This document shows, piece after piece, positions 36,724-38,133 of a stretch of 64,000 nt of DNA. The notes beneath the pieces were generated by a model. The model saw only the letters and a list, made by a program, of their open reading frames with translations, had not been told where the DNA came from and made no database searches. The translations under genes and the position numbers were made by a program. The stretch is from Leucoraja ocellata (taxonomy: Eukaryota). Every line of letters begins with the position of its first letter. The first letter of the stretch is position 1. The stretch is taken from the NCBI GenBank assembly GCA_036785375.1, contig JAWMAR010000748.1:496001-560000 (forward strand), given 5' to 3'.

Positions 36724-37053
36724 GGTCTGATATTGTACGACGACATCATGGGCAACACTTCTAAAGGGAAGAGCAAGGAGCCTGAGATTTTTGATCACTT
36801 TGAAAAATGCTTCTCTATCTTCAAACTGGAGAAGGAGCTGGTAAATAATTTGGGAGCTGAGACGCTGAGCCTTTGCGACCCCTTGGCTGGGAACGAGACT
36901 CGGGGAGGTGATCTTACTGCTGCGACTGAGGCCTCTCACCAGGTTACCGTTGTCGCGACAGGAGACAAAGCCTGGAAGGCCGTGAGAGTGGACCTGGTCG
37001 TTGCCCCCTTCAGCCAATACGCTTATGCGTTGTTAGGATGGACGGGTTCACGG
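36724..37053 (+). CDS. POLM: DNA polymerase mu, coding exon 9 (Loop1, third catalytic Asp)
   Basis: tatttcag|GGT; GLILYDD...[12 protein letters not shown]...[27 protein letters not shown]; donor GTAAGT; 330 nt. Confidence 0.94.
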
Positions 37054-38049
37054 GTAAGTATAAATAAACAGAGTTAAACATTTTTTTCAGAGTACGTAAA
37101 CCAAATTCTTCATTTCTGAAATAGATTGATCAGAGGGTCAGGTGGCATCTCTGGGGAACATGGAGAGGATGTTTCCATTCGGGGACCAACCTTCTGAAAT
37201 GAAGATAGACACAAAATGCTGGAGTAACTCAGCGGGACAGGCAGCATCTCTGGAGAGAAGGAATGGTTGACATTTCGGGTAGACACTTTTCTTCAGAGGT
37301 CTTGACCTGAAACGTCACCCATTCCTTCTCCATAGATGCTGCTGAGTTACTCCAGCATTTTGTGTCTGTCTTTGATGTAAACCAGTTCTTTCCTGCACAT
37401 CCTTCTGAAATGAGTTGCTTGATATGAGCTGGAATGTCGGGAAACTCCAGACTGGATCAGCACCCCTCGTACATGCCAGCAGACACCCAGGAGATACCAT
37501 TTGAATGTAATATGCACATCTCTTCTAAAAGGGCTTCTGTTTTTAGCTGAAGATTAACTATTTTATTAAAGCTAGGGCACTACATGAGCAGGGGTTGATG
37601 GATGGCTGGCAACTGGGGACCCTGTAGCCTGCAGATGCTGGAAACCTGAGCAATAAACCAAGTGCTGGAGGAACTCGGTGGGTCAGGCAGCACCCATGGA
37701 GGGAGTGGACAGACCACATTTTGGTTTCTCGACACAGAAGACATTTCCCAACCCAAAACGCAATCTGTCCAAGACTATTAAATGTGTAGGAAGGAACTGC
37801 AGACACTGGTTTACACTGAAGATAAACACAGAATGCTGGAGTAACTCAGAGGGACAGGCAGCAGAGAAGGAATGGGTGATGTTTCGGGACAAACCCCTTC
37901 TTTAGACTACTAAATGGTTGGAATAAAAAGGGAACAAAGTGTAGATTCTGGAAATGTAGTGAAACAGGTGCAGAGATTTATTCAACTTGTTAGGGAATAA
38001 CTCCGTTTTGAATGTAATTTTAAATGGCTTGTTTCCTGCTGTCTTGCAG

Positions 38050-38133
38050 CTCTTCGAACGAGACCTGCGCAGATATGCCAAGCACGTAAAGAACATGAGT
38101 CTCAGCAGCCATTCTTTGTTTGACAATGAGCAG
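38050..38133 (+). CDS. POLM: DNA polymerase mu, coding exon 10 (thumb)
   Basis: tcttgcag|CTC; LFERDLRRYAKHVKNMSLSSHSLFDNEQ; donor GTAGGA; 84 nt. Confidence 0.93.

What the first reader, a model, noticed from the sequence alone, without database searches (positions are those of the whole stretch)
36724..38133. Pol mu orthologue with TdT-like specificity residues
Seen: after Loop1 the protein reads DHFEKCF, and later GWTGSR-LFERDLRRYAKH and LSSHSLFD. Recalled references: human TdT DHFQKCF / GWTGSRQFERDLRRYATH / LDNHALYD; human Pol mu DAFERSF / GWTGSKLFQRELRRFSRK / LNSHGLFD. The Lys here aligns with Pol mu Arg387, whose change to Lys is known to raise untemplated addition. The N-terminus, [12 protein letters not shown], SHxLFD and linkage to NUDCD3 favour POLM. 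Inference: this enzyme may retain an ancestral TdT/Pol mu hybrid state with elevated terminal-transferase activity, relevant to V(D)J junctions in the oldest jawed-vertebrate lineage.
Basis: partly seen in the sequence, partly recalled or inferred. Interest (0 to 1): 0.7.

Follow-up and report, generated by a model that had tools for sequence, protein, structure and literature searches.

The report
Skate polymerase mu with TdT-type lysine
This is the skate's ordinary DNA-repair polymerase mu gene, separate from its TdT gene; like all sharks and rays checked it has a lysine that in the human enzyme raises untemplated DNA synthesis, so it may add more random letters than ours, but its other features predict a template-using enzyme and this is untested.

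Summary
The motifs are real. They lie in exons 9-10 of an intact 11-exon, 529-aa gene of a rajid skate; Lys391 aligns with human Pol mu Arg387. The gene is POLM: it nests among shark and ray POLM, grouping with DNTT is rejected (AU p 6e-38), NUDCD3 lies beside it, and a separate DNTT exists in the genome. The lysine is not special to this skate: 16 of 16 elasmobranch genera and the coelacanth have it, against 0 of 99 other non-mammalian bony genera, 0 of 16 mammals, chimaera, lungfish and 0 of 4 cyclostomes. The other 'TdT-like' residues (Cys, ERDLRRY, His) occur in lamprey/hagfish or many non-mammalian POLM; mammals are the odd ones. Two determinants that matter by mutagenesis are Pol mu-type: Loop1 (23 residues against 26 in 17 of 17 DNTT, no Phe385 anchor) and SD2 (SSH, not DNH). 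Best reading: a templated end-joining polymerase, perhaps with a looser primer brake. Whether Lys is ancestral is unresolved; no V(D)J role is shown. The scan noted the same in a shark genome.

The parts
5693..5904 (+). POLM exon 1 (start codon, N-terminus, start of BRCT)
11036..11216 (+). POLM exon 2 (BRCT)
17209..17304 (+). POLM exon 3 (linker and YACQR segment)
19128..19298 (+). POLM exon 4 (8-kDa domain)
20068..20139 (+). POLM exon 5
22675..22795 (+). POLM exon 6 (fingers)
26906..27038 (+). POLM exon 7 (palm)
33678..33780 (+). POLM exon 8: GHDVD, His335 (human His329 position) and catalytic Asp336/Asp338
36724..37053 (+). POLM exon 9: Loop1, SD1, long Loop2, third catalytic Asp453, GWTGSR
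36724..36792 (+). Loop1 stretch, 23 residues before the SD1 Asp (26 in 17 of 17 DNTT); Asn-Thr-Ser where mouse TdT has Ser383-Thr384-Phe385; no Pro391
36793..36813 (+). SD1 motif DHFEKCF (residues 387-393)
36805..36807 (+). Lys391 codon AAA = human Pol mu Arg387 / mouse TdT Lys403 position
38050..38133 (+). POLM exon 10: helix N (LFERDLRRYAKH) and SD2
38104..38112 (+). SD2 thumb mini-loop SSH (human Pol mu NSH, TdT DNH)
43935..44021 (+). POLM exon 11 with stop codon
48720..48860 (+). NUDCD3-like gene, first coding exon (approximate ends; Nudc_N domain)
57020..57178 (+). NUDCD3-like gene, CS-domain exon (approximate ends)

Best explanation
The gene is the skate orthologue of DNA polymerase mu and carries Lys at the Arg387 position like all elasmobranchs checked; it likely works as a template-using end-joining polymerase whose primer brake is probably looser than in the human enzyme. 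Shown: intact gene, BRCT plus family-X core with His335 and three catalytic Asp, POLM placement, a separate DNTT, Lys391, a short non-TdT Loop1, SSH at SD2. Inferred: BRCT recruits it to Ku/XRCC4-ligase IV ends; the short Loop1 without the Phe385 anchor and without Asp473 is mobile and gives way to a template strand; Lys391 holds the primer less than Arg, so untemplated additions at 3' overhangs may be more frequent than with human Pol mu (about even odds) while staying well short of TdT; N-region addition in lymphocytes is done mainly by the animal's own DNTT.
For: Tree: window gene inside elasmobranch POLM (SH-aLRT 99-100) and outside DNTT (100); forcing it with DNTT costs 128 log units, p-AU 5.7e-38; FastTree with 84 rows gives all POLM one clade, 0.938. 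Identity 98.5% to Leucoraja POLM, 73% to Heptranchias POLM, 52-54% to three chondrichthyan DNTT. Intact 522-aa DNTT on contig C211 with DHFQKCF and DNH. Human POLM and NUDCD3 are both listed at 7p13 (PMC6916753). Loop1 swap alone switches activity in both directions (PMC1636348; PMC2724280); a three-residue deletion in TdT Loop1 gives very much reduced TdT activity, F385A reduced, D473A templated. Skate Loop1 is three residues shorter than TdT's, has Ser at the 385 position and Ser at 473. R387K raises terminal transferase up to 100-fold in human Pol mu (PMC4081086 citing Andrade 2009; PMC3592450). The model of P0003 has pLDDT 57 and no helix over residues 371-380, against 79 with a short helix over residues 381-390 of a shark TdT (weak).
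Against: No enzyme assay exists for any shark or ray Pol mu in the searches made. The R387K effect was measured in the human background with human Loop1, and a second change nearby (Phe389) abolishes it, so it may not carry over. The skate SD1 matches TdT at 6 of 7 positions, and Glu at the seventh occurs in 7 of 29 DNTT genera, so activity could be more TdT-like than I estimate. Two IQ-TREE runs place chondrichthyan and coelacanth POLM nearer DNTT than other bony POLM (SH-aLRT 92 and 94), although POLM as one clade is not rejected (p-AU 0.243).
Confidence: 0.7

Rival explanations
1. Dual-mode enzyme close to the ancestor of TdT and Pol mu: efficient templated synthesis plus strong untemplated addition, contributing to N regions or to ordinary repair junctions in sharks and rays.
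For: TdT-type SD1 with Lys in 16 of 16 elasmobranch genera and coelacanth; Lys also in 15 of 29 invertebrate single-copy genera including both tunicates; K403R or K403A cripples mouse TdT; short branches and a weak pull towards DNTT in two trees; shark light-chain joints commonly carry N additions, which the review ascribes to TdT (PMC5192425).
Against: Arg in chimaera POLM, lungfish, 4 of 4 cyclostomes, amphioxus and echinoderms; Loop1 and SD2 not TdT-type; a full DNTT is present; no expression data in lymphoid tissue were obtained.
Confidence: 0.15
2. The lysine is functionally neutral in this background: a conservative Arg/Lys toggle at a site that has changed many times, and the enzyme behaves like any fish Pol mu.
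For: The site needs at least 6 changes on the 42-row gene tree and reads Ser or Thr in 7 amphibian genera and one anglerfish; invertebrates without V(D)J carry Lys or Arg (15 and 11 of 29).
Against: Lys is fixed in all 16 elasmobranch genera and all 29 DNTT genera, Arg in 91 of 99 other bony POLM; mutagenesis shows large effects in both human Pol mu and mouse TdT. This rival overlaps with the uncertain half of the best explanation.
Confidence: 0.3
3. Hidden paralogy: chondrichthyan and coelacanth 'POLM' are a sister copy of DNTT, distinct from the POLM of ray-finned fish and tetrapods, which would explain the shared lysine by descent.
For: ML trees with and without the motif columns group them with DNTT at SH-aLRT 92 and 94 on a 0.08 branch.
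Against: AU test does not reject one POLM clade (p 0.243); FastTree recovers it; mammal, turtle and sturgeon POLM fail the composition test; NUDCD3 linkage matches human 7p13; chimaera has Arg; it needs several complementary gene losses.
Confidence: 0.05
4. The gene is a miscalled DNTT, or exon 9 was converted from DNTT.
For: Exon 9 alone scores higher to mouse TdT than to human Pol mu (53 against 39 bits).
Against: AU rejection; separate DNTT; DNA around SD1 differs between the two skate genes at most third codon positions and the flanking Loop1 is unlike.
Confidence: 0.01

Closest known systems
Vertebrate DNA polymerase mu (POLM); annotated Leucoraja erinacea XP_055518024.1 (P0270) and Amblyraja XP_032869751.1 (P0272, named 'nucleotidylexotransferase-like')
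   Same: 98.5% and 97.5% identical; same domains, His329 position, catalytic triad, xSH at SD2, NUDCD3 linkage; the annotated skate, ray and shark proteins already contain the lysine.
   Different: Against human Pol mu: Lys for Arg387, His/Cys for Ala384/Ser388, Ser for Asn457, Lys for Arg449, Loop1 two residues shorter, Loop2 much longer.
Human Pol mu R387K mutant (Andrade 2009, seen only through PMC4081086 and PMC3592450)
   Same: Same residue at the primer-brake position.
   Different: Engineered in a human Loop1/SD2 background; here natural and lineage-wide, activity unmeasured.
Terminal deoxynucleotidyl transferase (DNTT), including this genome's own gene on C211
   Same: SD1 6 of 7 residues, GWxGSR, ERDLRRY, exon layout of 11 exons.
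   Different: Loop1 23 against 26 residues, no Phe385 or Pro391 counterpart, SSH against DNH, separate clade and locus, 52-54% identity.
Single-copy Pol mu/TdT-like enzymes of cyclostomes and invertebrates
   Same: Cys at SD1, Tyr in helix N, ERDLRRY in 4 of 4 cyclostomes, xSH at SD2.
   Different: Cyclostomes, amphioxus and echinoderms have Arg; tunicates, hemichordates, molluscs and shrimp have Lys.

Membership tests
DNA polymerase mu (POLM) | BRCT plus family-X core with three catalytic Asp and His329 | tested here: met
   (BRCT weak, E 1.8e-4, over cut-off)
DNA polymerase mu (POLM) | Groups with annotated POLM, outside DNTT | tested here: met
DNA polymerase mu (POLM) | All jawed-vertebrate POLM form one clade that includes it | tested here: inconclusive
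   yes in FastTree 0.938; not in IQ-TREE best trees; not rejected, p-AU 0.243
DNA polymerase mu (POLM) | Linkage to genes of human 7p13 | tested here: met
   NUDCD3-like gene 4.7 kb downstream; one neighbour only; POLD2-like and hexokinase hits lie on other contigs
DNA polymerase mu (POLM) | SD2 of type N/S/T-S-H, not DNH | tested here: met
   SSH
DNA polymerase mu (POLM) | Arg at position 387 (mammalian sequence determinant ERS) | tested here: not met
   Lys391; but also not met by 16 elasmobranch genera, coelacanth and 8 bony genera, so it marks mammalian and most bony POLM, not the orthology group
DNA polymerase mu (POLM) | Template-directed gap filling and end joining | not testable with these tools
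   needs enzyme assay
TdT (DNTT) | SD1 with Lys403 and Cys404 | tested here: met
   DHFEKCF
TdT (DNTT) | SD2 DNH | tested here: not met
   SSH; DNH in 17 of 17 tree-checked DNTT
TdT (DNTT) | Fixed-length Loop1 with hydrophobic 385 anchor and Pro391 | tested here: not met
   23 against 26 residues; Ser at the anchor; no Pro
TdT (DNTT) | Member of the DNTT clade | tested here: not met
   p-AU 5.7e-38
TdT (DNTT) | Template-independent activity and lymphoid-restricted expression | not testable with these tools
   no assay; the runs laid gave no tissue information

The most novel reading that the evidence does not exclude
Sharks, rays and the coelacanth run a naturally unbraked Pol mu that both reads a template and adds many untemplated bases, a living stand-in for the enzyme from which TdT arose, giving them a second source of junctional diversity besides TdT.
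Probability: 0.15. Interest if true: 0.65.

Novelty: new variant of a known kind. Interest (0 to 1): 0.3.

Why it matters
Arg387 is presented in the papers read as the brake that keeps Pol mu from acting like TdT. A whole vertebrate lineage with Lys there is a natural test of that model and of how TdT arose: one recombinant protein and one point mutant would settle it. If activity is high, antigen-receptor and repair junctions in sharks and rays could carry TdT-independent insertions. If not, the residue is context-dependent and the gene is ordinary.

Tried and rejected
Gene miscalled or DNTT-derived: rejected. Skate-specific change: rejected, lineage-wide. Broad TdT/Pol mu mosaic: only 7 columns separate bony POLM from DNTT under my thresholds; the window gene has 3 TdT-type, 2 POLM-type and 2 other, but lamprey has 3/3, coelacanth 4/3 and a hemichordate 3/3, so this is not a skate peculiarity. 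Automatic exon picking chose wrong borders for exons 3, 9 and 10; borders were set by AG/GT and checked. Wider synteny: family searches for phosphoglycerate mutase, hexokinase, POLD2-type and longin domains gave no hit on C748, uninformative in a fragmented assembly. Expression: no RNA holder listed; two raw RNA runs of other skates, read at about 6% and 1%, gave almost no exon coverage, no evidence either way. Fold search cannot tell Pol mu from TdT. Papers not held: Andrade 2009 and PMC4260717.

Full report
Observation. Window 36724-37053 is an open exon with [19 protein letters not shown] and GWTGSR; 38050-38133 reads LFERDLRRYAKH and LSSHSLFD. With a 98.5% identical database protein as guide (P0003) the gene resolves into 11 exons from 5693 to 44021, all introns GT-AG, 529 residues, no internal stop. 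One contig of run X3 joins exon 9 to exon 10. The closest named proteins are Leucoraja and Amblyraja (98.5% and 97.5%), so the animal is a rajid skate. DHFEKCF aligns with human DAFERSF, in which the paper numbers Phe385, Arg387 and Phe389 (PMC4081086): Lys391 is the Arg387 position and mouse TdT Lys403.

Identity of the gene. A search of the own genome with a shark TdT found a different gene on contigs C211 and C775; its 11 exons give an intact 522-residue protein with DHFQKCF and DNH that falls among shark DNTT. The window gene falls among skate, ray and shark POLM in an 84-row FastTree and a 42-row IQ-TREE (rows chosen by me from about 290 fetched, one per lineage). Holding it with DNTT is rejected, p-AU 5.7e-38. 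The next gene downstream has Nudc_N and CS domains and matches KIAA1068 far better than NudC; that KIAA1068 is NUDCD3 is recalled; human POLM and NUDCD3 are both at 7p13 (PMC6916753 tables). Against this tidy picture, both IQ-TREE runs, with and without the Loop1, SD1, helix N and SD2 columns, put chondrichthyan and coelacanth POLM on a short branch with DNTT (SH-aLRT 92 and 94). One POLM clade is not rejected (p-AU 0.243), and mammal, turtle and sturgeon rows fail the composition test, so I read this as slow evolution and bias, with hidden paralogy at about 5%.

How widespread the residues are. One search counts one row per genus among named proteins from three homologue searches and one cluster look-up; unnamed rows and rows gapped at SD1 were dropped; the first two searches listed only their best 120 hits, so teleosts are over-represented and birds' POLM is absent. 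DNTT rows were sorted by DN at SD2, which makes their SD2 count circular; 17 of them were checked by tree. At the Arg387 position: Lys in 16 of 16 elasmobranch POLM, in coelacanth POLM and in 29 of 29 DNTT; Arg in chimaera and lungfish POLM, 91 of 99 other non-mammalian bony POLM (the other 8 Ser or Thr, none Lys), 16 of 16 mammals and 4 of 4 cyclostomes; among 29 invertebrate genera 15 Lys, 11 Arg, 3 other. So the lysine is a real mark of sharks and rays, not of this skate and not of non-mammals in general. Cys at SD1 is in 95 of 99 bony POLM and all cyclostomes; helix-N Asp and Tyr are in 4 of 4 cyclostomes; Arg after GWTGS is in 15 of 99 bony POLM and only 12 of 16 elasmobranchs. They look TdT-like because human Pol mu has diverged. 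Within the same helix the skate has Lys at the Arg449 position, where mouse TdT has Thr; PMC4081086 (section 13) calls Arg449 a Pol mu template contact.

Is the lysine ancestral? Unresolved. The site needs at least 6 changes on the gene tree. Counting by hand on the accepted species tree (recalled), Arg at the duplication needs six Lys/Arg changes (echinoderms, chordate stem, tunicates, DNTT, elasmobranch POLM, coelacanth) and Lys throughout also needs six (echinoderms, amphioxus, cyclostomes, chimaera, ray-finned fish, lungfish plus tetrapods). No model-based estimate was obtained. The nearest outgroups (cyclostomes, chimaera POLM) have Arg, which leans slightly towards a gain in the elasmobranch stem.

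Mechanism. From the mutagenesis papers: Arg387 contacts the primer and brakes its backward step, His329 promotes it, and R387K raises terminal transferase up to 100-fold (PMC3592450 passages; PMC4081086 passages citing Andrade 2009). In mouse TdT, K403A and K403R give stuck or partly templated enzymes (PMC2724280, parts 2-4 of 6 read). The same papers show that Loop1 decides the mode: grafting it switches activity both ways, deleting three residues of TdT Loop1 leaves very little TdT activity, F385A lowers it, and D473A in SD2 gives the clearest templated phenotype of the SD2 mutants. The skate Loop1 stretch has 23 residues against 26 in 17 of 17 DNTT, starts Asn-Thr-Ser in the pattern of fish POLM and cyclostomes (Asn-Ser/Thr-Tyr) with Ser at the Phe385 anchor, and lacks the Pro391 motif; SD2 is SSH, as in 63 of 99 bony POLM. 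AlphaFold models of P0003 and of Heptranchias TdT give lower confidence and no helix in the skate loop (57 against 79 for roughly matching blocks), weak support only. I therefore expect a mobile Loop1 and templated end joining, with about even odds that Lys391 raises untemplated addition noticeably above human Pol mu. All activity statements are inferred.

V(D)J. Nothing here ties the gene to lymphocytes. The genome has an intact DNTT. A review says N additions are the commonest change at shark light-chain joints and ascribes them to TdT (PMC5192425, passages); mouse Pol mu acts at light-chain joints without frequent N addition (PMC1636348, passages). Passages of PMC10322711, PMC13433984 and PMC8061691 discuss TdT in evolution without this residue.

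Prior description. Nine full-text searches returned no paper on Lys387 in shark or ray Pol mu. The library lacks most subscription papers; Andrade 2009 and PMC4260717 were not held, Beetz 2007 was seen only as a reference entry, and the supplementary alignments of PMC4081086 and PMC12362244 were not opened and may show such sequences. The annotated proteins are public. This scan already noted the same feature in a shark genome (e1-9526307), which I confirmed for Carcharodon; it is not independent evidence.

Second copy. The window's contig holds an inverted second POLM plus the NUDCD3 region at about 40-120 kb, part of a mirror repeat seen at all three sampled distances over about 600 kb, 91-99% identical with many indels. 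The copy is intact, has the same Lys codon and differs at 12 of 1590 coding bases, 7 non-synonymous. DNTT also occurs twice, longin-domain genes show inverted pairs inside two other contigs, and run X1 holds one version of exon 9 carrying 3 of the 6 letters of the second copy. This fits two haplotypes scaffolded side by side, not a gene duplication, though depth was not checked.

Verdict. A real, lineage-wide variant of a known enzyme, easy to test and of moderate interest to specialists in family-X polymerases; the 'ancestral hybrid' and V(D)J claims are possible but unsupported so far.

Noticed in passing
G000:C748, about 1-600 kb; second POLM at 64013-105938 (minus): The first 600 kb of the contig appear to be one inverted repeat (91-99% identical, many indels) that includes POLM and the NUDCD3 region; likely two haplotypes scaffolded head to head. 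Similar inverted pairs on C164 and C381.
   Followed up: partly
window exons 3, 6 and 9: Six of the seven amino-acid differences between the two POLM copies are private to the window copy against Leucoraja, Amblyraja and Rhinoraja (7 non-synonymous, 5 synonymous), while the two DNTT copies differ at 2 of 846 exon bases with no amino-acid change.
   Followed up: partly
P0030/P0280 (Latimeria POLM): Coelacanth POLM also has DHFEKCF, with a long 29-residue Loop1; the only bony vertebrate POLM with Lys in the set.
   Followed up: partly
P0078, P0079, P0080, P0086, P0094, P0096 (frog POLM); P0042, P0128 (salamanders): Frogs read DGHETCY at SD1 (His for the conserved Phe385, Thr for Arg387) with a short Loop1; salamanders have Ser at 387. 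A larger departure from the mammalian model than the skate's.
   Followed up: no
G000:C211:2844754-3200577: The skate DNTT spans about 356 kb with a 123-kb intron 7, against 38 kb for POLM.
   Followed up: no
window 36814-36972: Loop2 between SD1 and WKAVRVD is about 53 residues in the skate, much longer than in mouse TdT, and predicted disordered (pLDDT under 50 at 407-439).
   Followed up: no
P0025 (Protopterus), P0272 (Amblyraja); P0048, P0077, P0083, P0090 (teleosts): Database names are crossed: lungfish and Amblyraja POLM are named nucleotidylexotransferase-like, and several teleost proteins with DNTT motifs are named polymerase mu.
   Followed up: partly
window 49225-49424: A 200-base N gap inside the NUDCD3-like first intron; the other copy has about 8 kb of sequence across it.
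   Followed up: no
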